From NCBI GenBank assembly GCA_903858275.1, contig CAIOIC010000080.1:33063-97062 (forward strand): a stretch of DNA of 64,000 nt, read 5' to 3'. A program made the position numbers and the translations under genes. Origin of the DNA: an uncultured Verrucomicrobia subdivision 3 bacterium (GTDB lineage Bacteria > Verrucomicrobiota > Verrucomicrobiia > Limisphaerales > UBA11358). Position 1 is the first letter of the stretch. Every line of letters begins with the position of its first letter. The notes below the pieces were generated by a model that saw nothing but the letters and a program-made list of their open reading frames with translations, was not told where the DNA came from and did no database searches. Of this stretch, positions 2,228 through 33,902 are shown piece by piece.

Positions 2228-2405
2228 GATGTTTAATTATGTCTGGGCAACTATAACCGTCAACGTCAGACGGTGATGGCGGATATGTTTTTGGTGAAGC
2301 CAGTCATTCTTTGTCCGGAGCCGGGGCGGTATCTTTGGCAATGAACAACCACGACAATTCTCTATGTTTGAAGCACCATGTTGGCTGGGCTGTGGAAACT
2401 CAATT

Positions 2406-4556: not shown

Positions 4557-4569
4557 TAACAAAAAAGCC

Positions 4570-6387: not shown

Positions 6388-6420
6388 TTTTGACTTGCAG
6401 GCGTTTCTGAAAGCTGAACC

Positions 6421-8565
6421 ATGAATGCAATGAACCGCCGCCATTTTCTCGTCACGAGTTTAACGGCTGCCTCCGCCGTCACGCTCGGGTTGCGTCTGGA
6501 TGCGGCTGAGGCGGCTGCCTACCAGTTTGACCCGACGCCCGACATCATCAAAGCTCCGAAAAATCCCGCGCTCTGGCCGGAGTTTCGCAAGCAACTGGCC
6601 GAATGGCGCGAGAAGAAACGTGGCGAATTGAACTACTTCGATGCGCTTTATCAGCGTGCTGATTTCGCGTGGGTGCCGGGCAGCTATGTTTGCTATTTCC
6701 TGATGTTGAACGACGAGCGTTTCTACGACGCAACCAGCGGGCGTTATCTCGTCAAGAAATGGCTTGCCGCCTGTCAGCGCGACTTCGGCGGCGTGGACAG
6801 CGTGGTGCTCTGGCACGCGTATCCCCGCATCGGACTCGATGACCGCAACCAGTTTGATTTCTACCGGGACCAGCCCGGTGGCCTGACCGGACTGCGCGCC
6901 GTGGTGGATGAACTGCATCGCGCCGGTGTGCGCTCCTACATTGACTACAACCCGTGGGACAAAGGCACGCGCCGCGAGGCGAAGGGTGACATTGACATGC
7001 TGTGCGAGATTGTGGCCGCGCTGGACGTGGATGGCATTTTTCTGGATACGATGAAGGAAGGCGCGGCGGATTTTCGGAAAATGCTCGACGCCATCCGTCC
7101 GGGCGTGGTGCTGGAGGGCGAAATCTCGCTGCCGATGGAACGCATCGCCGATCATCACATGGGTTGGGCGCAGGGTTTCAAGGACAGCGAGGCACCCGGC
7201 GTGGTGCGGAACAAATGGTTCGAGCGCCGCCACCAGCTTCATCATGTGCATCGCTGGGGGCATGATCGCACGGAATTTTTTCAGACGGCCTTCATGAATG
7301 GCACGGGCACGATGCTTTGGGACAATGTCTTCGGTAGTTGGGTCGGTTACAGCCCGCGCGAGAAATCCATTTTGCGTTCCATGCTGCCCATCCAGCGATG
7401 TTTTACGGCGCTGTTTTCCGGCGAACAATGGACGCCGCTCGTGCCGACAAACAACGCCGAGGTCTTCGCCAGCTTGTGGGAGGGCAACGGCCTCCGGCTG
7501 TGGACGCTGGTGAATCGCGCGACACGGGAAATCAAAGTTGAACTGCCGAATATTGAACTGAAAAATGACGAGCGGCTTTGGGATTTAGTTTTTGGCACCG
7601 AAGTGAAGTTCGCCCGCACGACGATTCGCCCGCGCTGCATCGGCTGTTTCGTGGCTGCGCGAACGGAGGCGCTGGGAAATGATTTCGACAAATTTATCGC
7701 ACGTCAATTTGCCACCGACCAGGCCGCGAACTGGGATTGGAAATTTCCGAACGAAGTCCAAACGAAACTAAAACCCGTCGCGCCCACTCGGGCGTATGCG
7801 CCGGCGAAAGTTCCCGGCGGCATGGCGGTGATTCCCAGCGGAACCTATAAATATGACGTGCGGTTTTGCATCCGCGAATGTGGCTGGTATGAATCCGATC
7901 CCAACACCATTGAACGTTTTGGCTATAACCTTCATCAATTTCGGAATCAGAAAAGCGACGTGGTGCTTCCGGCTTATGCGATGGATTTGACGCCCGTGAC
8001 GAACGCCGAGTTCGCCGCCTTCCTCAAGGCTTCCCGCTACCAGCCGAAGCAGAAAGACAATTTTCTCAAACATTGGCGCAATGGTGCGCCGGTTGGAGGA
8101 CACGAGGATCATCCGGTCGTGTATGTGGATATCGCCGATGCGCGGGCCTACGCCACCTGGGCGGGCAAACGCTTGCCGACGGAGGTGGAATGGCAGTTCT
8201 CTGCGCAAGGTGGCGACGGACGGAAATATCCCTGGGGCAATCAAGAACCAAAACCAAATGACGGCTTGTGCAACGGTTTCGGCACGGACACTACGCCGGT
8301 GAAACAATTTCCCGCCGGTCGTTCACCGTTCTGTCTATATGATCTGTGCGGCAACACTTGGGAGTGGACGGAAAGCGAGCGTTCCGACGGCATCAACCGA
8401 TTCTCCATCCTGCGCGGCGGCTCACATTATCAGGCCGCCGGATCACACTGGTATATGGATGGCGGGCCGCAGGAAGTTTCTTTCGCCTGCAAATATCTGC
8501 TGCAATGGCCGGGCCTCGACCGGTGCGCCACGGTCGGTTTCCGTTGCGTGGTGGATTTGGGGTGA
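6421..8565 (+). CDS. Tat-signal protein: unassigned N-terminal domain of about 450 aa fused to a C-terminal FGE-sulfatase (SUMF1/EgtB/PvdO-type) domain
   Basis: The N-terminus MNRRHFLVTSLTAASA is Tat-like. The C-terminal blocks MAVIPSGTY, RLPTEVEWQFSAQGG, YPWGN, GNTWEWTES and RGGSHY match the FGE-sulfatase fold. I cannot place the N-terminal part (GIFLDTMKEG, possibly TIM-barrel-like). Confidence 0.65.
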   Translation: MNAMNRRHFLVTSLTAASAVTLGLRLDAAEAAAYQFDPTPDIIKAPKNPALWPEFRKQLAEWREKKRGELNYFDALYQRADFAWVPGSYVCYFLMLNDERFYDATSGRYLVKKWLAACQRDFGGVDSVVLWHAYPRIGLDDRNQFDFYRDQPGGLTGLRAVVDELHRAGVRSYIDYNPWDKGTRREAKGDIDMLCEIVAALDVDGIFLDTMKEGAADFRKMLDAIRPGVVLEGEISLPMERIADHHMGWAQGFKDSEAPGVVRNKWFERRHQLHHVHRWGHDRTEFFQTAFMNGTGTMLWDNVFGSWVGYSPREKSILRSMLPIQRCFTALFSGEQWTPLVPTNNAEVFASLWEGNGLRLWTLVNRATREIKVELPNIELKNDERLWDLVFGTEVKFARTTIRPRCIGCFVAARTEALGNDFDKFIARQFATDQAANWDWKFPNEVQTKLKPVAPTRAYAPAKVPGGMAVIPSGTYKYDVRFCIRECGWYESDPNTIERFGYNLHQFRNQKSDVVLPAYAMDLTPVTNAEFAAFLKASRYQPKQKDNFLKHWRNGAPVGGHEDHPVVYVDIADARAYATWAGKRLPTEVEWQFSAQGGDGRKYPWGNQEPKPNDGLCNGFGTDTTPVKQFPAGRSPFCLYDLCGNTWEWTESERSDGINRFSILRGGSHYQAAGSHWYMDGGPQEVSFACKYLLQWPGLDRCATVGFRCVVDLG

Positions 8566-8571
8566 TACGAA

Positions 8572-9834
8572 ATGAATTCCCTTGCCCAGATGAATTCAAA
8601 CAATCCCGATACCAACATGATTAACCGAAGGGGTTTTATCAAAACCTCATCCGTCGTCACCGCCGGCTCACTGCTCGGTGGCAGTCTCGCTTCGCTGGCT
8701 GCTGCGCCAGCGGTCGTAGGCGTGACGCTCTCCGGTCATCGGTTGAAGCGGCCGCTGGCGATTGCGATGTGGGACTTCTCCTGGCTGGAGCGCCGCTGGC
8801 CGGGCGCTGGCTATGAGGATTGGGACCAGGCGTTGGATGAACTCAAGGAGCGCGGCTACGACGCCGTGCGTATTGACGCCTATCCGCATCTGATCGCCGC
8901 TGGTGCCGAGCGCGAATGGGAATTGCTCCCCTGCTGGAACCAGCACGTCTGGGGCAGCCCGGCGCTTTGTCGCGTTCGGGTGCAACCGGCCTTGAACGAG
9001 TTTATCGCCAAGTGCGGAAAGCGCGGCATCCTTGTTGGTCTTTCAACTTGGTTTCGCGAGGACGCCGCGGAAAATCTCTGCACGAAGATCGCCTCGCCGG
9101 AAGAATTGGGGCGCATTTGGAAAGTGACGCTTGATTCGATCAGCCCGGAGTTGCGCCGGCACATCCTGTATGTGGATTTCTGCAACGAGTTTCCTTCGCA
9201 CATCTCGACGCCATTCTTACCCAAGGATTTCAAACGCCATTCGCCAGAGGGGGAACGCTGGATGCGCGATTCGATTGCCGTGGCGCGCCGGGAGTATCTC
9301 CAGTTCAGTTACACCTTTTCCATTGACCGCGAATTTGATTCATTGCGCGAACAGAATACCTCCTTCCTCGATTTTCTGGAGCCGCATGTATGGATGACAA
9401 ACTTCTCCGATTTCTATCAGCAAGTTGGCTACAAGTGGGAAACCTTCGACCCGGTCGGCTACGAGAGAATTGTCGCCAAGGCCGAGACGCTCTATCGCTC
9501 CAAGCCGGCCTATTGGCAATCACGGCTGGAATATGGAATCCACCTTCTCGCCGATTGGTCGCGCGCCAGCGGCAAGCCGCTGATCACTACCGAATGCTGG
9601 GGCGTTGTGGTTTTCAAAGACTGGCCGCTGCTGAATTGGGACTGGGTGAAAGACCTGACCGAACACGGCGTCCGCACAGCCTCTGCGACGGGTTGCTGGG
9701 CGGCGCTGGCCACGAGCAATTTCTGCGGTCCGCAGTTCAAAGGCATGTGGCGCGACATCGCCTGGCACCGGCGGCTTACCGATGTGATTCACCACGGCAA
9801 GCTGCCGAATTATCCCCTCCAATTGAAAAGTTGA
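8572..9834 (+). CDS. Putative glycoside hydrolase, cellulase-like TIM-barrel family, Tat signal
   Basis: Tat-like MINRRGFIKTSSVV. WDFSWLERRWPGAGYEDW, RIDAYPHL and DFCNEFP resemble the sugar-binding cellulase-like family as I remember it. The family assignment is tentative. Confidence 0.45.
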   Translation: MNSLAQMNSNNPDTNMINRRGFIKTSSVVTAGSLLGGSLASLAAAPAVVGVTLSGHRLKRPLAIAMWDFSWLERRWPGAGYEDWDQALDELKERGYDAVRIDAYPHLIAAGAEREWELLPCWNQHVWGSPALCRVRVQPALNEFIAKCGKRGILVGLSTWFREDAAENLCTKIASPEELGRIWKVTLDSISPELRRHILYVDFCNEFPSHISTPFLPKDFKRHSPEGERWMRDSIAVARREYLQFSYTFSIDREFDSLREQNTSFLDFLEPHVWMTNFSDFYQQVGYKWETFDPVGYERIVAKAETLYRSKPAYWQSRLEYGIHLLADWSRASGKPLITTECWGVVVFKDWPLLNWDWVKDLTEHGVRTASATGCWAALATSNFCGPQFKGMWRDIAWHRRLTDVIHHGKLPNYPLQLKS

Positions 9835-9836
9835 AT

Positions 9837-12158
9837 ATGAACTTCCACCGAATTATCGCAGGTGCGCTGGCGCTCGCTGCAACCGCAATTCAAGCCGCAG
9901 AGTTTTCTGTCGCTATAAACGGAAACGACAGCAACACCGGCTCATTGGCAAACCCCTTCAAGACCATTTCTGCCGCAGCCAGAATCGCGCAGCCGGGCGA
10001 TGTAATCACCGTGCATGAAGGCATCTATCGCGAACGCATCAACTCGCCGCGCGGCGGCACGTCCGACAAGAAACGCATCGTCTATCGGGCCGCGCCGGGC
10101 GAGAAGGTGGAGATCAAGGGGTCGGAGGTCGTCAAGAATTGGACGAAGGTTCAGGGCGATGTCTGGAAGGTTGCGCTGCCGAACTCGTTGTTCGGCGGCT
10201 TTAATCCCTACAGCGACCTCATTCGCGGCGACTGGTTCAACGCGAAAGGCCGCGAACATCATACCGGCGCAGTCTATCTCAATGGCGAGTGGCTGACCGA
10301 GGCGGCCAAACTGGAAGAAGTGCTAATGCCGGGCAGTCCGGCGTGGCTTACCAAAGGGGGAAAGCATGTTCTGCTAAACGTGGCCTGGTTACGGCCGGAC
10401 AGCAGCGCTGGGAATACTCCGCGCACTCCAGCGACGAGTTTTGCAGCCAGGAACGGGACGACCAACGCACCGTGTTCGGAGGGCGGAGAGTGTCTCGGCT
10501 GGATCATGTCCGGCGATTGGGTTCGCTACGAGCAGATGGACTTCAAACAGGGTGTCAGACAGGTGGAGATTCGCGCGGCGTCAGCCTCGGAAGGCGGAAT
10601 CATCGAAATGCGGCTGGATACGCCGGATGGGGATCTTTTGGGAACGTGTCACGTCGCGAACACCGGCGGCTGGCAATCGTGGGTTTCGCACAAGACCACC
10701 ATCAAGCCGGTCAGCGGAGTGAAGACCCTTTGTCTCGTGTTTAAGGGCAATAATCCATCAGCCTTGAATCCCCAGTTGTGGTTTGCACAAGTGGACCCGA
10801 CAAACACCGCGATCTGGGCGCAGTTTAAGGGCATGAATCCGAATGAACAGCTCGTCGAAATTAACGTGCGCCAAACCGTGTTCTACCCCGACCAACCGGG
10901 GCGCAACTTCATCACCGTCCGTGGTTTCACGATGCGCCACGCCGCCACGCCGTGGGCACCGCCAACCGCCGAGCAAATCGGCCTCATCGGCACGCATTGG
11001 AGCAAGGGTTGGATCATTGAGAGCAACATAGTCAGCCACTCGATTTGTTCCGGCATCTCGCTCGGGAAACATGGCGATCAGTTCGACAATACTTCCGCCA
11101 ACAGTGCCGAAGGTTATGTGAAGACGATTGAACGCGCCCATGCCCATCCTATTGCGTGGACGAAGGAAAACATCGGTCACCATATCGTTCGCAACAACAC
11201 CGTTTCACACTGTGAACAAGCTGGCATCGTTGGCAGTCTGGGCTGTTCTTTCAGCACGGTCACCGGGAACATCGTCCACGACATCCACGTCCGGCGGCTC
11301 TTTACCGGCGCGGAAATGGCGGGCATCAAATTTCATGCCGCCATTGATACCGAAATCAGTCGCAATCACATTTACCAAACGTGCCGCGGGCTCTGGCTGG
11401 ATTGGATGGCGCAGGGCACGCGCGTCTCGCGAAATCTTTTTCACGACAACGACCAGGATCTGTTTGTCGAGGTAAACCACGGCCCGTTTTTAATGGATAA
11501 TAATTTATTTCTGTCCCCCGTCAGCCTGATGGACTGGTCCGAAGGCGGTGCCTATGTGCACAATCTGATGGCTGGCAAAATCATCAGCCGGCCTGAGCCG
11601 CGCCGCGAGACACCGTTTCATCCCGCGCACTCGACGAAGATCGCTGGCTTGCTGAGCATCAGGGGTGGAGACAATCGTTTCTACAACAACATTTTCATAG
11701 GTGGCGGCGAATCTTCAACTGTCACCACCAACACTGTCAAACCAACTGCCAATAAACCCCAGTCAGATGTTGGTTATGGCTTATGGGTGTATGACAACCG
11801 TGAGTTGCCTCTGCAAACCGGCGGCAATGTGTATCTCAATAGTGCGAAGTCCTATGCCAATGATTCCAATTCATTAGCGCTGTCGAATGTTGATACGAAG
11901 TTGAAAATCATGGAGGAAGGCGGACAGGCTTTTATCCAGTTCAACTTCGGTCCGGAATTGAAACAAGTTTCCACCCGGCCCGTCACAACCGCTTTGTTGA
12001 ACAAGGCGAAGATTGCCGTCCTGCCTTATGAAAATGCCGATGGCTCGCCGCTGAAAATCGACTCGGATTATTTCGGCAAGGCTCGGAGCAAGACAAAACC
12101 CACGCCCGGACCATTTGAAAATCCCGGCCCGGGCAATCTCAAACTAAAAGTTTGGTGA
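9837..12158 (+). CDS. Right-handed parallel beta-helix protein with embedded CBM6-like module (putative polysaccharide lyase/glycanase), secreted
   Basis: The real start is the ATG at 9837 (MNFHRIIAGALALAATAIQA signal), 2 nt after the upstream stop. The ORF-track start at 9390 overlaps the upstream gene. The N-terminus NGNDSNTGSLANPFKTISAA...GDVITVHEGIY is typical of beta-helix enzymes. DWVRYEQMDF...NTGGWQSW...LCLVFKG is CBM6-like. Repeated helix turns are NNTVSHC, ISRNHIY and VSRNLFHDN. Confidence 0.7.
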   Translation: MNFHRIIAGALALAATAIQAAEFSVAINGNDSNTGSLANPFKTISAAARIAQPGDVITVHEGIYRERINSPRGGTSDKKRIVYRAAPGEKVEIKGSEVVKNWTKVQGDVWKVALPNSLFGGFNPYSDLIRGDWFNAKGREHHTGAVYLNGEWLTEAAKLEEVLMPGSPAWLTKGGKHVLLNVAWLRPDSSAGNTPRTPATSFAARNGTTNAPCSEGGECLGWIMSGDWVRYEQMDFKQGVRQVEIRAASASEGGIIEMRLDTPDGDLLGTCHVANTGGWQSWVSHKTTIKPVSGVKTLCLVFKGNNPSALNPQLWFAQVDPTNTAIWAQFKGMNPNEQLVEINVRQTVFYPDQPGRNFITVRGFTMRHAATPWAPPTAEQIGLIGTHWSKGWIIESNIVSHSICSGISLGKHGDQFDNTSANSAEGYVKTIERAHAHPIAWTKENIGHHIVRNNTVSHCEQAGIVGSLGCSFSTVTGNIVHDIHVRRLFTGAEMAGIKFHAAIDTEISRNHIYQTCRGLWLDWMAQGTRVSRNLFHDNDQDLFVEVNHGPFLMDNNLFLSPVSLMDWSEGGAYVHNLMAGKIISRPEPRRETPFHPAHSTKIAGLLSIRGGDNRFYNNIFIGGGESSTVTTNTVKPTANKPQSDVGYGLWVYDNRELPLQTGGNVYLNSAKSYANDSNSLALSNVDTKLKIMEEGGQAFIQFNFGPELKQVSTRPVTTALLNKAKIAVLPYENADGSPLKIDSDYFGKARSKTKPTPGPFENPGPGNLKLKVW

Positions 12159-12194: not shown

Positions 12195-13616
12195 ATGAAA
12201 ACAGAAATATCGCCCGCCAGCATGATTGCGAAGGTCAACTTCTCCTACCTGTTGCCCATTTGCCTCGTGGCCACGCTTGGCGGATTATTGTTCGGCTACG
12301 ACACCGGCGTCATCTCCGGCGCGATCGAACCGCTGACCGCGTGCTTTCATCTGAGTGACGTGATGAAAGGCTGGGCGTCCGGCTGCGTGCTTATTGGCTG
12401 CGCGGCGGGCGTGCTCTTGGTTGGGCCGATCTCGGATCGCTTCGGTCGCCGGCTGGCGATGTTTCTGGCGGCGGGGATGTTTCTCGCCTCCGCCATCGGC
12501 ACCGCCTTGCCGCATGACATTTGGACTTTTATTTTCTTCCGCGTCATCGGCGGGCTGGGCATTGGCATCGCCTCCATCTCGACGCCGATGTATATCGCGG
12601 AGATCACGCCGGCGCACATTCGTGGACGGATGGTGGCGGTGAACCAGATCGCCATCGTCGGCGGCATCGCCCTGACTTCGTTCGTCAACTATTTCATCGC
12701 CAAGTCCGGCGATCAGGCGTGGCTGATCGAGAACGGCTGGCGGTGGATGTTTGGCACGGGGATTGTGCCCGCCCTCCTCTTCGGCCTGCTGCTGATTCCA
12801 ATTCCCGAAAGCCCGCGCTGGTTGATTGAGAAAAAACGCGAAGACCAGGCGCGGCGGATTCTTGAAAAAGTCGGCGGGCCGGAATTTTCCAATTCGGAAT
12901 TCGCCAGCATTAAGGCCGCGTTGTCGCGGGAAAAAGGCACCTGGGGCGAATTATTCTCCGCCCAGTTGCGGTTGCCGCTGCTCATCGGCGTGCTGCTGGC
13001 CATCCTCCAGCAAGTCACCGGCATCAACGTGTTCATGTATTTCGGCGCTACCATTTTCAAAAACATGAGCGCTTCGACCGGCGTGGATGCCGGCCTGCTC
13101 CAGCAGTTCATCATCAACGGCACCGGCGTCCTGTTCACGCTCGTCGCCATTTCCACGGTGGACAAATGGGGGCGCAAGCCGCTGATGCTGGTCGGTGCCG
13201 CCGGCATGGGGTTCAGCCTGCTGGCGATGGGCATCCTGGCCCAGATCCTGACCGACCCGGCGGCGGGCAGTGGGTGGATGCTGTTGTTCAGCCTGCTCTA
13301 CATCGGCTGTTTCAGCCTGTCGGTGGGGCCGGTGACGTGGGTCATCCTCGCGGAGATTTTCCCGACCGCGGTGCGCGGTCGTGCCCTGGGGCTGGCGACA
13401 TTTTTCATGTGGACGGCGGATTATTTTGTGACTCAGACCTTCCCGATCATGGATGCGAAGGACTCGTGGTTCGTGGCGCATTTCAATCATGCCTTTCCGT
13501 TCTACGTCTATGCGGTGTTCTGCGTCGCGCTGGTGCTGGTGGTCTGGCGTATGGTTCCGGAAACCAAGGGCCGGTCACTGGAAGAAATTGAAAGGAGCTG
13601 GAGCCTCAAGCCATGA
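12195..13616 (+). CDS. MFS sugar porter (sugar:H+ symporter, XylE/GalP-like)
   Basis: 12-TM profile with sugar-porter motifs GRRLAMFLAAG, PESPRWL and PETKGRSLEEIE. Confidence 0.9.
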   Translation: MKTEISPASMIAKVNFSYLLPICLVATLGGLLFGYDTGVISGAIEPLTACFHLSDVMKGWASGCVLIGCAAGVLLVGPISDRFGRRLAMFLAAGMFLASAIGTALPHDIWTFIFFRVIGGLGIGIASISTPMYIAEITPAHIRGRMVAVNQIAIVGGIALTSFVNYFIAKSGDQAWLIENGWRWMFGTGIVPALLFGLLLIPIPESPRWLIEKKREDQARRILEKVGGPEFSNSEFASIKAALSREKGTWGELFSAQLRLPLLIGVLLAILQQVTGINVFMYFGATIFKNMSASTGVDAGLLQQFIINGTGVLFTLVAISTVDKWGRKPLMLVGAAGMGFSLLAMGILAQILTDPAAGSGWMLLFSLLYIGCFSLSVGPVTWVILAEIFPTAVRGRALGLATFFMWTADYFVTQTFPIMDAKDSWFVAHFNHAFPFYVYAVFCVALVLVVWRMVPETKGRSLEEIERSWSLKP

Positions 13617-14764
13617 ATCCCACGAAGCCCGTCCCTGATCCTTTCCGCGACCATCGCAAAGCCGCTGGCATCCTCAAATGCGATTTCCGAGGCGAGAGCG
13701 TGCCGATGATCTTGCGCCACGAAGACGTGCGCCGCGCCGCGAAAGACTGGAAGACCTTCAGTTCGGATGCGCCGTTCCGCGTGCCGATTCCGTCGGAGGA
13801 AGATGTGCGGACGATGCGGCAGTTACCCATCGAGACGAATCCTCCCGAGCACACCGAGTATCGCGAAATCGTCGAGCCGTTTTTTCTGCGCGCCAAAAAT
13901 CCCGTGGTTGTCGCCGAGATCGCGGCGCTGATTGACCGGATGTTGGTGGATGCACTGGGTCGTGAATCCATCGAGGTGGTTCGCGAATTCGCGCTGCCCT
14001 TGCAGTCGCGCGCGCTGACGCATCTGCTCAACGTGCCCGAGGCGGAGGCGGAAACGTGGATTGGTTGGGGCACACACGTCTTCCGCGATGGTGGTGAAAG
14101 TCAGAAGAAAGGCGCGGTCTTGGAAACTTATTTGCAACGGCGATTCGATCAAGCTGTGGCGAAACCGGGCGAAGATTTTTTTAGCGCGCTGACAAAGGCG
14201 ACCTTCCGTGGCCGGCTGCTCACGCGCGAGGAGATGATGGGCTTTGCCAATCTGACCTTTGCCGGCGGACGCGACACAATCATCCACAGCATTTCCTCGG
14301 TGCTCGCCTACCTTGGTAAAAATCCGGAGGCGCTGGAATTTCTGCGGCAAGACCCGTCGCGCATCACGCTTGCGAGCGAAGAGTTTTTCCGCGTCTTCAT
14401 GCCGCTCACGCACATCGGGCGCGTTTGCCCGGTGGAAACCGATGTTCACGGCGTCACAGTGAAACCGGGGGGCCGTGTGTCGTTGGGCTGGGCGTCAGCC
14501 AACCGCGACGAAGCGGCGTTTGAATGTCCGCACGAAACACGCCTCGACCGCAAACCGAATCCGCACCTGTCGTTCGGCTTTGGCGCGCACCTCTGTCTCG
14601 GCGCGCCTCACGCGCGGTTGCTGCTCCGCACGCTGCTCCAGAAATGCACCGAACGCGTCGCCAGCATCACGGTATTGGCGGCGAAGGATCGCGTTGAAAC
14701 CGAGGCGAGTTACCAGCGCGTGATGGGCTACGAGTCCCTGACCGTCAAGCTGACGCCGCTCTGA
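13613..14764 (+). CDS. Cytochrome P450 monooxygenase
   Basis: Heme-thiolate loop FGFGAHLCLG, I-helix AGGRDT, ExxR (EEFFR) and N-terminal NPPEHTEYR. The start overlaps the transporter stop (ATGA at 13613-13616). Confidence 0.9.
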   Translation: MNPTKPVPDPFRDHRKAAGILKCDFRGESVPMILRHEDVRRAAKDWKTFSSDAPFRVPIPSEEDVRTMRQLPIETNPPEHTEYREIVEPFFLRAKNPVVVAEIAALIDRMLVDALGRESIEVVREFALPLQSRALTHLLNVPEAEAETWIGWGTHVFRDGGESQKKGAVLETYLQRRFDQAVAKPGEDFFSALTKATFRGRLLTREEMMGFANLTFAGGRDTIIHSISSVLAYLGKNPEALEFLRQDPSRITLASEEFFRVFMPLTHIGRVCPVETDVHGVTVKPGGRVSLGWASANRDEAAFECPHETRLDRKPNPHLSFGFGAHLCLGAPHARLLLRTLLQKCTERVASITVLAAKDRVETEASYQRVMGYESLTVKLTPL

Positions 14765-14777
14765 CTTCGAAAAACTT

Positions 14778-15776
14778 ATGAATTCAAAAGAACGTATCTT
14801 AAACCTGATTGCCGGCCAGCCGGTGGATCGTCCGCCCGCAATGCCTATTACCATGATGTGGGCGGCTGACCTCGTTGGCGCGAAATACCACGACTACGCG
14901 ACACGCGCTGAAATACAGGCCGCCGGTCAAATCGCCGCCGCTCAGCAGTTTGGATTTGATCACGTCTCGGTCATCTCCGACCCGTGCTGCGAGGCTGCGG
15001 ACTTGGGCGCGGCAATTTTTTATCCGCCTGACGGCCCGCCGGCAATCATCGAGGAACAGGCGTTGTTGGCGGACACAGCCACGTTGAATTCGCTGCGGGT
15101 TCCCGATCCGCATCGCACGGGCAGTCGCATGGCCAACCGCATCGAAGCCGTTTGTCTGCTGAGCCGTCAGATCGGAGCCACGCATCTGATCGAGGGTTGG
15201 GTCGAAGGTCCGTGCGCCGAGAGCGCCGACCTGCGCGGTATCAACACGCTGATGACAGATTACTACGACGACGCGAATTTCGTCCACGCGCTCGCGGCTT
15301 TCACCGTGGAAAATGCGCTGAAATTTGCCACCGCCCAAATCGAGGCCGGCGCGGACATCATTGGCGTGGGCGATGCCGCCGCCTCGCTCGTCGGGCGCGA
15401 GCTTTACGACGAATTTGTTTTCCCGCACGAACAGAAACTCATTGCCGGCATCCAAGCCGCCGGCGGCAAAGTGCGGTTGCACATCTGCGGCCGCACCATC
15501 CAACTGGCCGATGCGATTGCCAAACTGGGTTGCGAAATTGTGGATTTAGACACGTTCGTGGACCTGCGGGAAGCCCGCGCCATGATGGGCGCACAGCAGG
15601 TGCTGCTCGGCAATATCCACACCGTGAACGTCGTCAAGAACGGGAAGCCGGAAGACGTGCGCCGTGAACTCGCGAAGTGCCGCGCCGATGCCGGAGTCGC
15701 GTGGATCGCCGGTGCGGGCTGCGAAGTGCCGCGACAGTCACCGGCGGAAAACGTGCGGTGTTTTGCTCAAATTTAA
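14778..15776 (+). CDS. MtaA/CmuA-type methylcobamide methyltransferase (URO-D fold, short class)
   Basis: 332 aa. The URO-D-family layout includes QIEAGADII, and the zinc-motif pattern LHICG ... AGCEVP matches the H-x-C...C motif known from MtaA/MtbA. Confidence 0.75.
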   Translation: MNSKERILNLIAGQPVDRPPAMPITMMWAADLVGAKYHDYATRAEIQAAGQIAAAQQFGFDHVSVISDPCCEAADLGAAIFYPPDGPPAIIEEQALLADTATLNSLRVPDPHRTGSRMANRIEAVCLLSRQIGATHLIEGWVEGPCAESADLRGINTLMTDYYDDANFVHALAAFTVENALKFATAQIEAGADIIGVGDAAASLVGRELYDEFVFPHEQKLIAGIQAAGGKVRLHICGRTIQLADAIAKLGCEIVDLDTFVDLREARAMMGAQQVLLGNIHTVNVVKNGKPEDVRRELAKCRADAGVAWIAGAGCEVPRQSPAENVRCFAQI

Positions 15777-15818: not shown

Positions 15819-16901
15819 ATGGAACTGAATATTAATCCACCGTTGCCGGCGAAAAGGGATTTTCGCATCGGCATTTTGGGCAGCGGTTTCATCGTGAGCG
15901 ATTGCCATTTGGTGAGCTATCGCAAGGCCGGTTTCAATCCGGTCGCCATCGCTTCGCGGTCGCGTGAGAATGCGGCGAAGGTTGCCGTGCGTCATTCCAT
16001 CCCCAAGGTTTGCAACACTTACGAGCAGTTGCTGGACGATCCCACCATTGAAGTGCTGGATATCGCCGTGCCGCCGAACGCGCAACTCGCGCTCATCAAA
16101 GCTGCTTGCCAACGTAAAACTTTCAAAGGCATTCTCGCGCAGAAACCGCTAGGCATGAATTATGCCGAAGCGCTCGAAGCCGTTGAGTGTTGTGAGCAAG
16201 CCGGCATCACGCTCGCCGTGAATCAGAACATGCGCTACGACCAATCCGTGCGCGCCGGAAGGACTTTGCTGGAGAACGGCACCATCGGCGAGCCGGTGCT
16301 GGCGACGATTGATATGCGTGGCATTCCGCACTGGATGCCGTGGCAGGCGGAACTTAGCTGGGTCACGCTGCGGGTCATGTCCATCCATCATCTGGATTGC
16401 TTCCGTTATTGGTTCGGCGATCCGGAAGGAATCTTTTGCAGCACGCGTCCCGATCCGCGCACCCAATTTCCGCACACCGACGGCATCTGCACTTACATCC
16501 TCGAATACGCGAACGGCCTGCGCTGCGTGGCGATTGATGACACCTGGACCGGACCGGCGAAGGAAGGTTGTCCTGCTGACATCGGCATCCATTGGCGGAT
16601 CGAGGGATTGAACGGACTCGCCATGGGCGACCTCGGCTGGTGCAAAGATCCTTACACCAGCCCTTCCACCATTCGTTACGCGAGCAAAGGCGATAAAGAA
16701 TTTCATCAGCCTAAATGGAGCGAAAGCTGGTTTCCCGACGCGTTCGCGGGCACGATGGGACAACTGCTCATCGCGCTGGAAACCGGCAAGGAACCCGCCA
16801 TCGGCGGGCGCGATAACCTGAAAACCATGGCGCTGGTGGACGCGGCATATTTGAGCGCGGAGAAAAATCGGTTGGTGAAACTATCTGAAATCGCAGCATA
16901 A
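15819..16901 (+). CDS. Gfo/Idh/MocA family NAD(P)-dependent oxidoreductase
   Basis: N-terminal Rossmann motif FRIGILGSGFIV, the AQKPLG (EKP-like) motif, and a C-terminal alpha/beta domain. Confidence 0.8.
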   Translation: MELNINPPLPAKRDFRIGILGSGFIVSDCHLVSYRKAGFNPVAIASRSRENAAKVAVRHSIPKVCNTYEQLLDDPTIEVLDIAVPPNAQLALIKAACQRKTFKGILAQKPLGMNYAEALEAVECCEQAGITLAVNQNMRYDQSVRAGRTLLENGTIGEPVLATIDMRGIPHWMPWQAELSWVTLRVMSIHHLDCFRYWFGDPEGIFCSTRPDPRTQFPHTDGICTYILEYANGLRCVAIDDTWTGPAKEGCPADIGIHWRIEGLNGLAMGDLGWCKDPYTSPSTIRYASKGDKEFHQPKWSESWFPDAFAGTMGQLLIALETGKEPAIGGRDNLKTMALVDAAYLSAEKNRLVKLSEIAA

Positions 16902-16920: not shown

Positions 16921-17742
16921 ATGAAACTTGGCATCATCAATAGCGCGTTCGGTCAGGCGGGTGTGGATACCACCACCGGCCTCAAACACATCGCCCGCAT
17001 CGGTTTCGATTGCGTGGATATTTTCACCGAGGCGATGACGATTTCCAAAAAAGAGAAGCTGCTCATCGCGAGCACTTGCGACCGGGCGCGGCTGCCCATC
17101 ATTTCTTTGCCGGTGGTCGCCACCGGCTTGATTGATTTCAATGACCCCGTCCGCGCCTTTCACGTCGCGCGCTGCAAGAAGTTTGTTGACCTCGCCGCCG
17201 AGTTTGGCGCGAAGAACATTCTGCTCGTGCTGGGCGAATATCTCTGGCAGCGCGAAGTCATTCCACCGGCCGCCCAATGGCAATGGGCTGTGGAAACCTG
17301 CCGCGAAATCGGCGATTATGCCGGAAAAAAGAACGTGGACATCGCGCTGGAACTGGAACCGTTCCGCTTGAGCTTGCTCCACAATGTGGACGAAATGGTT
17401 CGCTTCGTGAATGACTGCAAACATCCGCGGGTGCGCGCCAACATTGATGTCAGCCATCTGGTTCTGGCCGATACCAGCCCGCTGGATCTGGCAAAGCTCA
17501 AAGGCAAGGCGATCCACGTTCACCTCAGCGACTGCGATGGGAAAGTTCACGGCGATCTTCCGCCCGGACGCGGGATTGTGAAGTTCGAGCCGTATCTGCA
17601 AGCGATCAAGGAATTGAAAATCAACGGCGTGGTTTCCATCGAGCTGGAGTATTCGCCCGATCCGAAGCGGATTGTCGAATGGGTGACGGAAGCCTACACC
17701 CAGACGGACAAGCTGATGAAACTGGCCGGCTTGCGTGGATAA
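16921..17742 (+). CDS. Sugar phosphate isomerase/epimerase (xylose-isomerase-like TIM barrel)
   Basis: Motifs IALELEP, NIDVSHL, HVHLSD, GDLPPGRG and SIELEY are typical of the family. Confidence 0.8.
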   Translation: MKLGIINSAFGQAGVDTTTGLKHIARIGFDCVDIFTEAMTISKKEKLLIASTCDRARLPIISLPVVATGLIDFNDPVRAFHVARCKKFVDLAAEFGAKNILLVLGEYLWQREVIPPAAQWQWAVETCREIGDYAGKKNVDIALELEPFRLSLLHNVDEMVRFVNDCKHPRVRANIDVSHLVLADTSPLDLAKLKGKAIHVHLSDCDGKVHGDLPPGRGIVKFEPYLQAIKELKINGVVSIELEYSPDPKRIVEWVTEAYTQTDKLMKLAGLRG

Positions 17743-17743
17743 A

Positions 17744-18511
17744 ATGGCTGCCGATTCCACACCTGCAAGCGGTGCGATGAAGCCGCCGCGCATTGCGATG
17801 CTGGCCTGCCGGGTGTTTGAAAAGGAGATCGCGCTGCTTGCGGCAGGAGCCAGCCATATTATGGAAACCCGCTTCTTCGAGGTCGGCTTGCATGACCGGT
17901 CCGATCACCTCCGTGAGAAGTTGCAATCCGAACTTCAAGTGGTTGAAGCTCGCGATGACATTGACGCCGTGGTGCTGGCCTACGGGCTGTGCGGTCTCGG
18001 CACAGCGGGCTTGCGCCCCTTGCGCCACAAGTTGGTCATCCCGCGTGCGCACGATTGCATCACTGTCTTCATGGGCAGCAAGGAAGCCTATGCCGCGCAT
18101 CAACGCCGCTGCCCGACCTGTATTTACTATTCGCCGGGCTGGAATCGTGAGCGTCGGGTTCCCGGTCCGGAAAGACTGGCGGCGCTCCAGTCCGAACTGG
18201 CCAAAAAATATGCGCCGGATGACGTGGAAATGCTGATCGAGACGGAGCGGGAGCTATGGGCGATGCATGACACCGTTACCTATCTTGACCTGGGCACGGA
18301 CGATGCCGAGTCGGAGGCGGATTACGCCCGTCGCTGCGCGGACTGGCTGGGTTGGAAATTCGAGCGGCTGGCGGGCGATCCCAAGCTGCTGCGGGATTTG
18401 CTCTGGGGCAATTGGGATTCAGAACGCTTTCAAATCATTGAGCCGGGCGACGAACTCGCGCACTCCGCCGATGAAAAAATTCTGTGCGCCAAGCCGGCGG
18501 TGAAAAAATGA
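17744..18511 (+). CDS. DUF1638 domain protein (family associated with corrinoid methyltransferase clusters)
   Basis: RIAMLACRVFEKE, LAYGLCGLG and IPRAHDCI match my recollection of DUF1638. The ATG at 17744 lies 1 nt after the upstream stop; the ORF-track GTG at 17735 overlaps it. Confidence 0.65.
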   Translation: MAADSTPASGAMKPPRIAMLACRVFEKEIALLAAGASHIMETRFFEVGLHDRSDHLREKLQSELQVVEARDDIDAVVLAYGLCGLGTAGLRPLRHKLVIPRAHDCITVFMGSKEAYAAHQRRCPTCIYYSPGWNRERRVPGPERLAALQSELAKKYAPDDVEMLIETERELWAMHDTVTYLDLGTDDAESEADYARRCADWLGWKFERLAGDPKLLRDLLWGNWDSERFQIIEPGDELAHSADEKILCAKPAVKK

Positions 18512-20148: not shown

Positions 20149-20873
20149 ACCCGAACGACTTTCCCGCTGTCCCGCTGTTGGAACACCGGCCCTACGACCG
20201 GATTCGTGAACTCTATCTTCTACAGGAACCCATGCTGCTGGCCGCCATCCGGCGCGGCGACCGGGGCGAATCGCGGCGGATTATTAATCACGTGCTCGTC
20301 CATATTTACAGCGCGGGCGAGGAGCGGAGCGATTTGTTGAAAGGCTTGCTGCTTGAACTCGTCGTGATGATTTCCCGCGCGGCGGTCGAGGCGGGCGCGG
20401 TGCAATCGGAAGTGCTGGGCATGAACTTCCGCTTTCTGACGGAGTTGGCGGTGATTGACGACGATGAACATCTCGCCGCGTGGCTGCGAAAAATCCTGGA
20501 ACATGTGATGTCCACGATTGAGCAGCAGAAGGATTTTACGCCGCCGCTGCTGATCGGCAAGGCGCTGGATTTCATGCGCCGGAATCTGCACCGCGACATC
20601 TCGCGCGACGAAGTCGCCCGCCATGCGGGGATTTCCCCCAGCCATTTTTCGCGGCTGCTCAAGGAACGCACCGGCCGGTCGTTCACGGAATTATTGCGGC
20701 AATGCCGCGTAGATCTCGCCTGTGAATTATTGAACAGCACCGAGCAGACCTTGGCGGAAATCGCCGACACCTGCGGCTTCTGCGACCAGAGTTACTTCAC
20801 CCGCGTGTTTCAGGATGTGAAGGGTTTGACGCCCGGACAATTTCGCTCCGCAGCCAAGCTGAACGGGACTTAG
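20145..20873 (+). CDS. AraC family transcriptional regulator with helical (non-cupin) N-terminal domain
   Basis: C-terminal AraC HTH pair (ISPSHFSRLLKERTG ... IADTCGFCDQSYFTRVF). The start overlaps the RACo stop (ATGA at 20145-20148). Confidence 0.85.
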   Translation: MNPNDFPAVPLLEHRPYDRIRELYLLQEPMLLAAIRRGDRGESRRIINHVLVHIYSAGEERSDLLKGLLLELVVMISRAAVEAGAVQSEVLGMNFRFLTELAVIDDDEHLAAWLRKILEHVMSTIEQQKDFTPPLLIGKALDFMRRNLHRDISRDEVARHAGISPSHFSRLLKERTGRSFTELLRQCRVDLACELLNSTEQTLAEIADTCGFCDQSYFTRVFQDVKGLTPGQFRSAAKLNGT

Positions 20874-31184: not shown

Positions 31185-31196
31185 GAGTTTTGTGGT

Positions 31197-32843: not shown

Positions 32844-32861
32844 GAGAATTGATTAGCTGAC

Positions 32862-33893: not shown

Positions 33894-33902
33894 CCGAATA
33901 TT

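What the first reader, a model, noticed from the sequence alone, without database searches (positions are those of the whole stretch)
13613..14764. P450 with no visible redox partner, translationally coupled to a sugar transporter
Seen: this is a canonical bacterial class-I-looking P450 (FGFGAHLCLG, AGGRDT, ExxR). Its ATG overlaps the stop of the MFS sugar porter. The window contains no separate ferredoxin or ferredoxin reductase gene. The only Fe-S domain nearby is the [2Fe-2S] module of the RACo protein.

Established: P450s with ferredoxin and reductase partners oxidatively demethylate 6-O-methyl-D-galactose in marine Bacteroidota during porphyran use.

Inference: this P450 could be an oxidative sugar O-demethylase sitting next to a corrinoid-type methyltransferase. 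The two would then be either redundant aerobic and anaerobic routes or sequential steps.
Basis: partly seen in the sequence, partly recalled or inferred. Interest (0 to 1): 0.55.

Follow-up and report, generated by a model that had tools for sequence, protein, structure and literature searches.

The report
Sugar-demethylase-type P450 in a B12 methyltransferase operon
This gene encodes a cytochrome P450 whose closest characterised relative removes methyl groups from an algal sugar; in Verrucomicrobiota it is widespread, has no electron-donor genes beside it, and repeatedly sits next to a vitamin-B12-type methyltransferase module, which suggests a previously undescribed way of stripping methyl groups from sugars.

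Summary
ORF 13613-14764 is an intact 383-aa P450. Its ATG overlaps the stop codon of an XylE-like sugar porter, and the 64-kb window has no ferredoxin, flavodoxin or reductase gene.

- The closest characterised protein is P450ZoGa (CYP236A2), the 6-O-methyl-D-galactose demethylase: 48% identity, E=5e-109, model TM 0.9. The next P450 scores 1e-39.
- The sugar-binding Glu62/Arg66/Gln70 triad is conserved. The hydrophobic cage differs (Val58Pro, Phe73Ile, Met270Ile), and the surroundings are not a porphyran locus, so the substrate is probably a different methylated sugar or cyclitol.

New findings:
- At least 574 Verrucomicrobiota species genomes carry close orthologues, almost never with adjacent redox partners.
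- The P450 recurs immediately upstream of an MtaA-like URO-D methyltransferase followed by DUF1638, RACo and AraC (10 of 33 loci in a scan seeded only on URO-D).
- In one relative a MocDEF-like O-demethylating oxygenase fusion occupies the P450's place in the module.

I read it as an oxidative methyl-ether demethylase working in parallel with a corrinoid methyl-transfer system. The enzyme activity, the substrate and the electron donors are untested.

The parts
2364..12158 (+). Upstream glycoside-hydrolase genes of the same tightly spaced same-strand array: GH2-like (2364-4556), GH10 (4570-6387), FGE-sulfatase-domain protein (6421-8565), PF12876 cellulase-like (8572-9834), GH120-insertion/CBM6 beta-helix protein (9837-12158)
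   Evidence: Pfam; gene calls on L004; gaps of 2-63 nt
12195..13616 (+). MFS sugar porter, XylE-like (a start at 12222 was called on L004); its stop overlaps the P450 start codon
   Evidence: PF00083 E=6e-118; PDB XylE 4gby E=1.7e-118; NF007484 XylE 469 bits, below the cut-off of 608
13613..14764 (+). CYP236-family cytochrome P450, the finding; predicted oxidative O-demethylase of a methylated sugar or cyclitol
13772..13846 (+). B-C loop (residues 54-78, PFRVPIPSEEDVRTMRQLPIETNPP) carrying the sugar-binding Glu62/Arg66/Gln70 and the changed contacts Pro58 and Ile73
   Evidence: alignment to P450ZoGa; residue roles from PMC6292453
14261..14278 (+). I-helix AGGRDT (residues 217-222), the acid-alcohol pair used for O2 activation
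14573..14602 (+). Heme-thiolate loop FGFGAHLCLG (residues 321-330, Cys328)
14778..15776 (+). URO-D family, MtaA/CmuA-like Zn methyltransferase (URO-D332); a recurrent partner of the P450
   Evidence: PF01208 E=1e-56; TIGR01463 E=9e-46; PDB MtaA 4ay7 E=1.6e-19 with the H-x-C and C-terminal G-C motifs aligned; synteny
15819..16901 (+). Cytoplasmic GFO/IDH/MocA oxidoreductase (best weak match: inositol 2-dehydrogenase IolG)
16921..17742 (+). Xylose-isomerase-like TIM-barrel protein (best weak match: IolO)
17735..18511 (+). DUF1638 protein (a start at 17777 was called on L004); partner of RACo in corrinoid reactivation
   Evidence: PMC5764234 and PMC12478193
18484..20148 (+). RACo/RamA-type reductive activator of corrinoid proteins with an N-terminal [2Fe-2S] domain (a start at 18508 was called on L004)
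20145..20873 (+). AraC-family regulator that ends the array; conserved at 82-89% identity in related modules
20981..23229 (-). Second oxygenase-methyltransferase pair: URO-D (412 aa, 20981-22219) and an FA_hydroxylase di-iron oxygenase (22219-23229), followed by RhaM, an SSF transporter and two GH29 fucosidases
30276..36603 (.). Rest of the corrinoid methyl-transfer set: homocysteine S-methyltransferase (30276-31184, -), PurU (31197-32033, -), corrinoid protein (32058-32843, +), URO-D (32862-33893, +), MtaB (33903-35285, +), URO-D (35332-36603, +)

Best explanation
The gene encodes a cytoplasmic, O2-dependent class-I-type P450 of the CYP236 family. It removes an ether-linked methyl group from an imported methylated monosaccharide, or possibly an O-methyl cyclitol.

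Proposed steps, all inferred from homology and gene context:
1. The glycoside hydrolases encoded upstream release monosaccharides.
2. The XylE-like porter imports them by proton symport.
3. The P450 binds the polyol ring through Glu62/Arg66/Gln70 and hydroxylates the O-methyl carbon. The resulting hemiacetal falls apart into the free sugar and formaldehyde.
4. The two electrons come from NAD(P)H through a ferredoxin (or flavodoxin) and a reductase encoded elsewhere in the genome.
5. The demethylated product is handled by the downstream GFO/IDH/MocA dehydrogenase and the TIM-barrel enzyme.

The changed hydrophobic cage (Pro58, Ile73, Ile268) means the substrate is probably not 6-O-methyl-D-galactose.

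The P450 is a facultative add-on to a conserved corrinoid methyl-transfer module: URO-D/MtaA-like methyltransferase, DUF1638, RACo, AraC, with a corrinoid protein and MtaB or further URO-D paralogues nearby. My preferred reading of this link, held with lower confidence, is that oxygenase and methyltransferase are parallel routes for taking methyl groups off the same class of substrates. The oxidative route yields formaldehyde. The corrinoid route keeps the methyl group for methionine or folate and works when O2 is scarce.
For: - Family assignment: PDB phmmer gives 6G5O/6G5Q at E=4.8e-109 over residues 6-383, with the next P450 at 2e-39. 6G5O/6G5Q is P450ZoGa/CYP236A2, the G6Me demethylase. Identity is 48%. 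The AF2 model (pTM 0.83) matches 6G5Q/6G5O at TM 0.89-0.92, against 0.75 or less for the following top-ranked hits.
- Catalytic motifs are intact and invariant.
- Glu62/Arg66/Gln70, Gly220 and Leu267 are conserved. The pocket signature P-E-R-Q-I/V-G-L-I is fixed in 78 of the 79 Verrucomicrobiota orthologues scored and in 17 of 19 URO-D-linked P450s down to 60% identity; the three exceptions each differ conservatively at position 267 or 270.
- Sugar context: XylE-like porter and GH2/GH10/GH120-like genes. There is no obvious N-terminal signal sequence (by eye).
- Redox partners elsewhere: no credible ferredoxin motif within +-10 kb in 80 species-level loci, and no Fer2, Fer4 or reductase family among the 25 commonest Pfam families of 145 immediate neighbours.
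- Link to the corrinoid module: P450-URO-D adjacency in the window, L004, L086/L087, the P0012 contigs, L045, L077 and L089. In a scan seeded only on URO-D, 10 of 33 loci have the P450 immediately upstream and 14 of 32 have DUF1638 immediately downstream. Linked P450s fall into at least 4 sub-clades.
- Independent support for O-demethylation: in L088 the place of the P450 in the module is taken by a FA_desaturase-Rieske-reductase fusion whose Rieske domain best matches the MocE family. MocDEF demethylates 3-O-methyl-scyllo-inosamine (PMC13434037). A 61%-identical homologue lies in L135.
- The P450 is dispensable in the module: GFO451 lies directly upstream of URO-D in L098, L099, L104 and L108.
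- DUF1638 plus RamA-like proteins reactivate corrinoids in aerobic bacteria, so the two chemistries can coexist in one cell.
Against: - No activity data exist for any member of this clade.
- Val58 and Phe73 of ZoGa, whose alanine mutants lose G6Me binding, are Pro and Ile here, so specificity cannot be transferred from ZoGa.
- A CYP236A enzyme turns over cyclohexane in vitro, so sugars are not the only possible ligands for the family.
- The AF2 model is unreliable exactly in the B-C loop (pLDDT below 50 for residues 51-79), so the pocket could not be examined.
- In 78 of 80 species-level loci the P450 is not next to URO-D. The link therefore holds for sub-lineages only.
- URO-D332 resembles MtaA, a methyl-corrinoid:acceptor transferase, more than any known substrate-demethylating enzyme.
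- No corrinoid enzyme is known to cleave aliphatic sugar methyl ethers (own knowledge; nothing found).
- No formaldehyde-detoxification gene was recognised in the window.
Confidence: 0.62

Rival explanations
1. Complementary, not redundant. The P450 removes ether-linked methyl groups as formaldehyde. URO-D332 is simply the MtaA-type second methyltransferase of a methanol system (MtaB, corrinoid protein, MtaA-like) that captures methanol released from methyl-esterified polysaccharides. The two share only a regulator and the theme of harvesting C1 units from methylated glycans.
For: URO-D332's best matches are MtaA/MtbA with the Zn motif. In L129 and L135 the module continues directly into the corrinoid protein and MtaB. 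The window has MtaB, a corrinoid protein, a homocysteine S-methyltransferase and PurU. The P450 is facultative in the module.
Against: It does not explain the one-to-one pairing of URO-D paralogues with oxygenases and sugar transporters: P450 with URO-D332; FA_hydroxylase with URO-D412; MocDEF-like with URO-D332 in L088; MocDEF-like with a URO-D412-like gene in L135. The MtaB cluster in the window already has two URO-D genes of its own.
Confidence: 0.25
2. Same chemistry, different substrate class. The P450 demethylates O-methyl-inositols such as pinitol-type cyclitols, which are common in plant litter, peat and lakes. The downstream GFO/IDH/MocA and TIM-barrel enzymes then start an inositol-type catabolism, as in the rhizopine Moc pathway.
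For: The best, though weak, NCBIfam matches of the two downstream enzymes are IolG (1.5e-24) and IolO (1.4e-18). The MocDEF-like oxygenase takes the P450's place in L088. CYP236A accepts a carbocyclic six-membered ring. Related loci come from peat, bog and lake metagenomes.
Against: The IolG and IolO scores are far below the model cut-offs (86 against 355 bits; 67 against 300). The transporter is closest to the xylose porter XylE. The operon begins with five glycan-degrading genes.
Confidence: 0.2
3. Sequential pathway. The P450 and the URO-D enzyme act one after the other on the same molecule, for example oxidation of a methyl group followed by a URO-D-type decarboxylation or transfer.
For: The gene order P450 then URO-D is tight and conserved, with 13-17 nt gaps or 4-nt overlaps, across P450s that are 60-100% identical. 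FA_hydroxylase-family enzymes do oxidise methyl groups stepwise in sterol demethylation (own knowledge).
Against: Closely related modules lack the P450 (L098, L099, L104, L108), and most P450 orthologues lack an adjacent URO-D. URO-D332 has the MtaA Zn-ligand motif and travels with corrinoid-reactivation genes, which points to methyl transfer rather than decarboxylation. P450 O-demethylation needs no second enzyme.
Confidence: 0.08
4. The [2Fe-2S] domain of RACo is the missing ferredoxin and passes electrons to the P450.
For: It is the only Fe-S module in the window and lies four genes downstream in the same array. RACo co-occurs with the P450 in several related modules.
Against: The same domain, with an almost identical Cys motif, is present in modules that have no P450 (e.g. 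L098, L100, L115, L129). None of 80 P450 loci from other species has RACo within 10 kb. Its role in reducing Co(II) corrinoids is already established.
Confidence: 0.05
5. The P450 is not carbohydrate-active. It hydroxylates a hydrophobic substrate such as an alkane, cycloalkane, terpene or fatty acid, and its position in a sugar operon is incidental.
For: P450 specificity is plastic. P450PsFu (CYP236A) hydroxylates cyclohexane in vitro. Most orthologues sit in unrelated neighbourhoods.
Against: The polar Glu-Arg-Gln triad is conserved in 14 of the 19 full-length cluster representatives at 34% identity or more and in every Verrucomicrobiota orthologue scored. Where neighbours are informative they are carbohydrate genes: sulfatases, GFO, TIM-barrel proteins, aldose epimerase and sugar porters. 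Lipid and terpene P450s score 1e-39 or worse.
Confidence: 0.05

Closest known systems
P450ZoGa / CYP236A2 of Zobellia galactanivorans (PDB 6G5O, 6G5Q) and P450FoAg: 6-O-methyl-D-galactose oxidative demethylases of marine Bacteroidota (Reisky 2018; Robb 2018, PMC6292453)
   Same: Same short P450 architecture (about 385 aa). 48% identity over the full length, model TM about 0.9. Identical Glu62/Arg66/Gln70 sugar-binding triad, Gly220 and Leu267. Sits in a glycan-utilisation setting.
   Different: Below the 55% convention for the same subfamily. Val58Pro, Phe73Ile and Met270Ile in the ligand cage. No adjacent ferredoxin, ferredoxin-reductase or Zn-alcohol-dehydrogenase genes. No agarase or porphyranase genes. 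Host phylum is Verrucomicrobiota, from freshwater, peat and soil. Linked to a corrinoid methyltransferase module.
[quoted passage not shown]
   Same: It works alike: oxidative O-demethylation of a methylated polyol, followed by a GFO/IDH/MocA dehydrogenase and a xylose-isomerase-like TIM-barrel enzyme. A MocDEF-like fusion takes the P450's place in the related module L088.
   Different: The oxygenase is unrelated (membrane di-iron plus Rieske plus reductase, against a soluble heme-thiolate P450). The window's own enzymes match the inositol-pathway models only weakly.
Corrinoid-dependent methyltransferase systems: MtaABC of methanol users, three-component O-demethylases of acetogens, and the MtgBCD/split-MetH system of aerobic Rhodobacterales with RamA and DUF1638
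   Same: The neighbouring genes supply an MtaA-like Zn methyltransferase, a RACo/RamA activase, DUF1638, a corrinoid protein, MtaB and a homocysteine methyltransferase module.
   Different: None of the described systems contains a P450 or other oxygenase or is embedded in a sugar-uptake operon. Known O-demethylases of this type act on aryl methyl ethers, not on carbohydrate methyl ethers.

Membership tests
Cytochrome P450 superfamily (PF00067) | Heme-thiolate loop FxxGxxxCxG with the proximal Cys | tested here: met
   FGFGAHLCLG, residues 321-330; F321, G322, G324, H326, C328 and G330 are invariant in 36 orthologues
Cytochrome P450 superfamily (PF00067) | I-helix (A/G)Gx(D/E)T acid-alcohol pair and K-helix ExxR | tested here: met
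   AGGRDT 217-222 and EEFFR 256-260
Cytochrome P450 superfamily (PF00067) | Profile match above the curated threshold, and the P450 fold | tested here: met
   52 bits against a cut-off of 22.8; AF2 pTM 0.83; all top fold hits are P450s
CYP236 family (carbohydrate-demethylating P450s) | At least 40% identity to a named member (CYP nomenclature convention, own knowledge) | tested here: met
   48% to CYP236A2 in a MAFFT alignment; 46-47% in the structural alignment
CYP236A subfamily (G6Me demethylases) | At least 55% identity to CYP236A members | tested here: not met
   48%. For comparison, cluster representative P0126 is 59% identical to ZoGa and 45% to the window protein.
CYP236A subfamily (G6Me demethylases) | Polar ligand contacts Glu62, Gln70 and the supporting Arg66 in the B-C loop | tested here: met
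   E62, R66 and Q70 are identical
CYP236A subfamily (G6Me demethylases) | Hydrophobic cage Val58, Phe73, Leu267, Met270 (described as strictly conserved; V58A, F73A and L267A abolish binding) | tested here: not met
   Pro58, Ile73, Leu265 (equivalent to 267) and Ile268 (equivalent to 270). Only Leu is kept.
CYP236A subfamily (G6Me demethylases) | Adjacent ferredoxin and ferredoxin-reductase genes (plus a Zn-ADH) in an agar/porphyran locus | tested here: not met
   No such genes in the 64 kb window or within +-10 kb in 80 orthologous loci. The glycoside hydrolases here are GH2, GH10, GH120-like, GH29 and GH115.
CYP236A subfamily (G6Me demethylases) | Turnover of 6-O-methyl-D-galactose to galactose plus formaldehyde | not testable with these tools
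   Needs an enzyme assay
Class I three-component bacterial P450 system | A separate ferredoxin and an NAD(P)H-ferredoxin reductase that reduce the P450 | tested here: inconclusive
   Absent from the window. The rest of the genome is not available. The protein has only a P450 domain, so it is not a self-sufficient fusion.
Corrinoid-dependent methyltransferase system (the neighbouring module) | URO-D/MtaA-type Zn methyltransferase | tested here: met
   PF01208 1e-56; TIGR01463 9e-46, below the model cut-off; MtaA 4ay7 1.6e-19 with the H-x-C and G-C motifs aligned
Corrinoid-dependent methyltransferase system (the neighbouring module) | Corrinoid-binding protein (B12-binding cap plus Rossmann domain) | tested here: met
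   32058-32843: PF02310 and PF02607; TIGR02370 2e-54. It lies 11 kb beyond the end of the P450 array, but it is directly adjacent to the module in L100, L115, L116, L129 and L135.
Corrinoid-dependent methyltransferase system (the neighbouring module) | ATP-dependent reductive activase (RACo/RamA) with its DUF1638 partner | tested here: met
   PF14574, PF17651 and PF00111; PF07796; roles from PMC5764234 and PMC12478193
Corrinoid-dependent methyltransferase system (the neighbouring module) | A substrate-specific first methyltransferase that demethylates a sugar methyl ether | tested here: inconclusive
   MtaB (methanol type) is present. Whether any of the four URO-D paralogues takes methyl groups from sugars cannot be told from sequence.
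MocDEF-type O-demethylating oxygenase (L088/L135 fusion in the P450's place) | MocD-like di-iron membrane oxygenase, MocE-type Rieske ferredoxin and MocF-type reductase | tested here: inconclusive
   PF00487, PF00355 and PF00175 in one 760-aa protein. TIGR02377 MocE family scores 118.7 bits against a cut-off of 136. His boxes and the Rieske motif are present.

The most novel reading that the evidence does not exclude
Verrucomicrobiota carry a modular methyl-ether harvesting system. In it each URO-D-type, corrinoid-dependent methyltransferase is paired with an O2-dependent oxygenase (a CYP236-like P450, a MocDEF-like fusion, or an FA_hydroxylase) and a sugar transporter. Both partners demethylate the same carbohydrate methyl ether. 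The oxygenase makes formaldehyde. The corrinoid route passes the methyl group to homocysteine or folate. If so, this would be the first corrinoid-dependent O-demethylation of aliphatic (sugar) methyl ethers, and an oxygen-switchable pair of routes in aerobic or facultative polysaccharide degraders.
Probability: 0.25. Interest if true: 0.85.

Novelty: new variant of a known kind. Interest (0 to 1): 0.6.

Why it matters
Methyl ethers block sugar catabolism. The only enzymes known to remove them from carbohydrates are the marine CYP236A P450s, which a 2025 paper describes as rare and confined to Bacteroidetes and Gammaproteobacteria (PMC11910816).

This work shows a sister clade that is close to universal across Verrucomicrobiota of lakes, peat and soil, in at least 574 species genomes, with a different pocket. 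That points to a much wider role for oxidative sugar demethylation in freshwater and terrestrial carbon turnover, and to substrates not yet identified.

The recurrent physical link to a B12-dependent methyltransferase module, and the replacement of the P450 by an unrelated O-demethylating oxygenase, give a concrete and testable hypothesis. It concerns how these bacteria deal with methylated glycans at different oxygen levels, and how glycan degradation connects to C1 and methionine metabolism and to B12 demand.

Tried and rejected
- **ORF calling.** My first greedy ORF caller replaced the P450 by its long antisense ORF in 17 of 80 loci. I redid it with the P450 forced in.
- **Ferredoxin patterns.** My first Cys patterns missed RACo's own C-x5-C-x2-C-x24-C motif. 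After broadening them, only chance matches in large or out-of-frame segments appeared, plus RACo and the Rieske fusions.
- **Wrong strand.** I first took 22210-23526 (+) as a gene. Gene calls on L004 showed that the real genes are on the minus strand: FA_hydroxylase and RhaM.
- **Promoter/terminator scan of 2000-21500.** Counts did not exceed the shuffles, so it was uninformative.
- **Cluster look-up.** The listing of cluster members gave no organism names for the 39-54% relatives, so the taxonomy of the intermediate clades is unknown.
- **Literature.** Searches for corrinoid-dependent demethylation of sugars, and for P450s of this kind in Verrucomicrobiota, found nothing.
- **4-O-methyl-glucuronate as substrate.** Suggested by GH115, GH10, UxaC and UxuA in the window. 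I did not adopt it, because the coupled transporter is a neutral-sugar porter of the XylE type. It is not excluded.
- **Peroxygenase (shunt) mode.** Considered unlikely, because the acid-alcohol pair for O2 activation is intact.
- **P450 fusions as Rosetta-stone hints.** The long P450 fusion proteins in the representative search are only 28-35% identical generic P450s, not family members.

Full report
**1. Observation**

ORF 13613-14764 (+) encodes a 383-aa protein. It has the heme-thiolate loop FGFGAHLCLG (Cys328), the I-helix AGGRDT and the ExxR motif EEFFR. All three are invariant in an alignment of 36 orthologues. The Pfam p450 score is 52 bits against a cut-off of 22.8.

The ATG at 13613 and the TGA at 13614-13616 of the upstream ORF form an ATGA overlap. 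The same gene boundaries were called independently on another assembly of the same operon (L004). Orthologue N-termini fit this start. The overlap is unremarkable: 4 of 36 same-strand junctions in the window have it. Coupling is therefore plausible but inferred.

The upstream protein is a full-length homologue of the E. coli xylose:H+ symporter XylE (PDB 4gby, E=1.7e-118). Its score against the XylE equivalog model is 469 bits, below the cut-off of 608.

The window contains no ferredoxin, flavodoxin or reductase gene. I checked with six-frame Cys-motif scans and with Pfam scans of the larger ORFs and of those my gene call left unannotated. The only Fe-S module is the N-terminal [2Fe-2S] domain of RACo.

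**2. What the P450 is**

Against all PDB sequences the best hit is 6G5O/6G5Q, at E=4.8e-109 over residues 6-383. The next P450 is at 2e-39. Robb et al. 2018 (PMC6292453) identify 6G5O/6G5Q as P450ZoGa (CYP236A2) of Zobellia galactanivorans. This enzyme oxidatively demethylates 6-O-methyl-D-galactose (G6Me).

Identity to P450ZoGa is 48%. An AlphaFold2 model (pTM 0.83) superposes on the four 6G5O/6G5Q chains at TM 0.89-0.92, and on the following top-ranked hits at about 0.75.

By the usual CYP convention (own knowledge) 48% places the protein in family CYP236 but outside subfamily A.

Mapping the ligand contacts listed by Robb et al.:

| P450ZoGa residue | Window P450 | Note |
|---|---|---|
| Glu62, Arg66, Gln70 | identical | hydrogen-bond O2-O4 of the sugar |
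| Gly220, Leu267 | identical | |
| Val58 | Pro | V58A abolishes G6Me binding in ZoGa |
| Phe73 | Ile | F73A abolishes G6Me binding in ZoGa |
| Met270 | Ile | M270A keeps binding in ZoGa |

The signature Pro/Glu/Arg/Gln/Ile-or-Val/Gly/Leu/Ile is fixed in 78 of the 79 Verrucomicrobiota orthologues scored; the remaining one has Leu at position 270. The Glu-Arg-Gln triad extends to 14 of the 19 full-length 50%-cluster representatives at 34-54% identity.

So the protein very probably binds a polyhydroxylated six-membered ring. Its specificity cannot simply be copied from ZoGa. The model is unreliable exactly in the B-C loop (pLDDT below 50 for residues 51-79), so I did not analyse the pocket.

**3. 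Distribution**

The word-indexed protein search found 5,792 proteins at E<=1e-40. The best 120 are all at least 74% identical, and the named ones are Verrucomicrobiota.

In one-genome-per-species contigs, at least 574 stretches encode a relative. The best 80 are 71-80% identical and span Opitutaceae, Chthoniobacterales, Pedosphaera, Limisphaerales, Verrucomicrobiaceae, Luteolibacter, Prosthecobacter and freshwater Akkermansiaceae.

This contrasts with the published view that CYP236A is rare and found mainly in Bacteroidetes and Gammaproteobacteria (PMC11910816). I found no paper dealing with the Verrucomicrobiota clade.

**4. Redox partners**

I called genes on the 80 species loci (+-10 kb). 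There is no credible ferredoxin-type Cys motif in any of them.

A Pfam scan of 145 immediate neighbours lists no Fer2, Fer4, flavodoxin or pyridine-nucleotide reductase family among its 25 commonest families. Those are sulfatases (9), ABC ATPases (6), hexapeptide transferases (4), alpha/beta hydrolases (4), xylose-isomerase-like TIM barrels (3), and URO-D, GFO and aldose epimerase (2 each).

Absence of clustered partners is therefore a property of the whole clade. This is unlike the Bacteroidota enzymes, whose ferredoxin and reductase genes lie close by (PMC10033563). The simplest reading is that generic partners are encoded elsewhere, as for many bacterial P450s (own knowledge). I could not test this without the whole genome.

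**5. The conserved link to a corrinoid module**

The P450 neighbourhood is generally not conserved. Only 2 of 80 species loci (L045, L077) have a URO-D gene directly downstream.

Closer relatives do share the window's arrangement:
- L004 is the same operon.
- L086/L087 (P450 90% identical) read GFO-P450-URO-D-DUF1638-RACo-AraC-URO-D.
- The P0012 contigs (82%) read AraC <> GFO-P450-unknown-URO-D.

I then seeded a search on the URO-D protein alone. Its orthologues are equally widespread, at 70-92% identity. In a metagenome scan (59 loci) the core is URO-D332-DUF1638-RACo-AraC, often followed by the corrinoid protein with MtaB or another URO-D.

Counts:

| Position relative to URO-D332 | Loci scored | What lies there |
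|---|---|---|
| Immediately upstream (more than 1.4 kb of sequence available) | 33 | P450 10; sugar porter 3; TAT-signal GFO 2; none of my probes 18 |
| Immediately downstream (more than 1 kb available) | 32 | DUF1638 14; corrinoid protein 3; GFO360 1; none of my probes 14 |

In two more of the 33 upstream loci (L097, L140) the P450 lies upstream across a larger gap.

URO-D-linked P450s fall into at least four sub-clades, 60-100% identical to the window protein. Seventeen of the 19 have the same pocket signature, and two (L143, L145) have Val at position 267. L110 repeats the window's porter-P450-URO-D order with a P450 only 63% identical. L135 holds every component within 20 kb.

For a roughly single-copy gene, 30% adjacency is far above chance. 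Versions of the module without the P450 also exist, with GFO directly upstream of URO-D (L098, L099, L104, L108). The P450 is therefore a facultative part of the module.

**6. Independent support for O-demethylation**

In L088 (URO-D 79% identical) the module reads URO-D, then a 760-aa FA_desaturase-Rieske-NAD_binding fusion, then sugar porter, DUF1638, RACo and AraC. The fusion has desaturase His boxes, a Rieske motif and an FNR-like domain. Its Rieske domain best matches the MocE-family model (TIGR02377, E=9e-35; 118.7 bits against a cut-off of 136).

[quoted passage not shown] So two unrelated oxygenase families fill the same place in the same module. What they share is their known chemistry: O-demethylation of a methylated polyol.

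The window has a third pair of this kind on the minus strand: URO-D (412 aa) and FA_hydroxylase, followed by RhaM, an SSF transporter and two GH29 genes.

**7. The methyltransferase side**

- URO-D332 is nearest to MtaA (PDB 4ay7, E=1.6e-19), with the H-x-C and C-terminal G-C motifs aligned. It matches the MtaA/CmuA subfamily model at E=9e-46, below the cut-off.
- DUF1638 and RamA-like activases are a genetically supported corrinoid-reactivation pair in aerobic Rhodobacterales (PMC5764234, PMC12478193). This explains RACo's [2Fe-2S] domain without any reference to the P450. It also shows that corrinoid methyl transfer operates in oxygen-respiring bacteria.
- The window further encodes a corrinoid protein, MtaB, two more URO-D paralogues, a homocysteine S-methyltransferase module and PurU.

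**8. Mechanism proposed**

Shown here: family membership, intact catalytic motifs, a conserved polar triad, a changed hydrophobic cage, absence of partner genes nearby, and the recurrent synteny.

Inferred:
1. The glycoside hydrolases release a methylated monosaccharide.
2. The XylE-like porter imports it.
3. The P450 hydroxylates the O-methyl carbon, using O2 and two electrons from unlinked ferredoxin and reductase.
4. The hemiacetal collapses to the free sugar and formaldehyde.
5. The cytoplasmic GFO/IDH/MocA dehydrogenase and the TIM-barrel enzyme process the product.

I read the link to the corrinoid module as parallel routes for removing methyl groups. The rivals are:
- a complementary methanol-capturing Mta system;
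- an O-methyl-inositol substrate, suggested by the weak IolG and IolO matches;
- sequential action, disfavoured by the P450-less modules;
- RACo as electron donor, disfavoured because the same domain occurs in P450-less modules and RACo is absent near the other 80 species-level P450 loci scanned;
- a non-carbohydrate substrate.

**9. Verdict**

The P450 is a new variant of a known kind: a CYP236-family enzyme with a distinct pocket and no clustered partners, in a new phylum and new habitats, recurrently tied to a B12-type methyltransferase module.

Nothing here is biochemical evidence. The substrate, the electron donors and the relation to the methyltransferase remain to be tested.

Noticed in passing
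window 20981-29190 (- strand): A second oxygenase-methyltransferase pair: URO-D (412 aa) directly followed by an FA_hydroxylase-family di-iron oxygenase, then L-rhamnose mutarotase, an SSF transporter and two GH29 fucosidases. It also has no redox partner. It hints at demethylation of methylated deoxy-hexoses.
   Followed up: partly
window 30276-36603: A cluster of homocysteine S-methyltransferase module, PurU, MtgC-like corrinoid protein, URO-D, MtaB (544 bits to PF12176) and another URO-D. It looks like a methanol or methyl-X:corrinoid system joined to a split-MetH-like methionine synthase. This is unexpected in a Verrucomicrobiota glycan degrader. No pterin-binding methyltransferase was seen in the window.
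   Followed up: partly
L088 9093-11375; L135 about 15566-17914: A single 760-aa protein fuses an FA_desaturase-type membrane di-iron domain, a MocE-like Rieske ferredoxin and an NqrF/FNR-like reductase. It looks like a self-sufficient MocDEF-type oxygenase and occupies the P450's place in the module.
   Followed up: partly
window 53879-62709, with GH10 at 4570-6387: UxuA, an RraA-like aldolase, an MFS transporter, an SDR, a GH39/42-like protein, GH115 and UxaC, together with GH10 and GH120-like genes, point to glucuronoxylan use. The fate of 4-O-methyl-glucuronate is a further candidate role for one of the demethylation systems.
   Followed up: no
window 518-1348 (+), within ORF 404-1348: A 276-aa protein with no Pfam hit is 51% identical (E=1e-97) to the gene directly downstream of the P450 in L036. 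That gene belongs to a small neighbour cluster seen next to the P450 in 4 other genomes. In the window it lies 12 kb away, next to an aldose epimerase fragment.
   Followed up: partly
L086 8683-10038 and many URO-D-seeded loci: A TAT-signal GFO/IDH/MocA protein of the BT_2158 glycoside 3-dehydrogenase family (E=3e-145) is the commonest gene upstream of the P450-URO-D pair. It is predicted to be periplasmic, while the P450 has no obvious signal sequence (by eye) and is therefore presumed cytoplasmic.
   Followed up: partly
L034, L052, L062, L071: Four of the 80 best genome hits are labelled Bifidobacterium, Bifidobacteriaceae or Klebsiella (third-party MAG assemblies). Yet they carry a P450 72-74% identical to the Verrucomicrobiota clade. 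These are probably mislabelled or mis-binned records.
   Followed up: no
window 6421-8565 (+): A 714-aa protein with only a C-terminal FGE-sulfatase (formylglycine-generating-enzyme-like) domain sits in the middle of the glycoside hydrolase array. Its N-terminal 500 residues have no family match.
   Followed up: no
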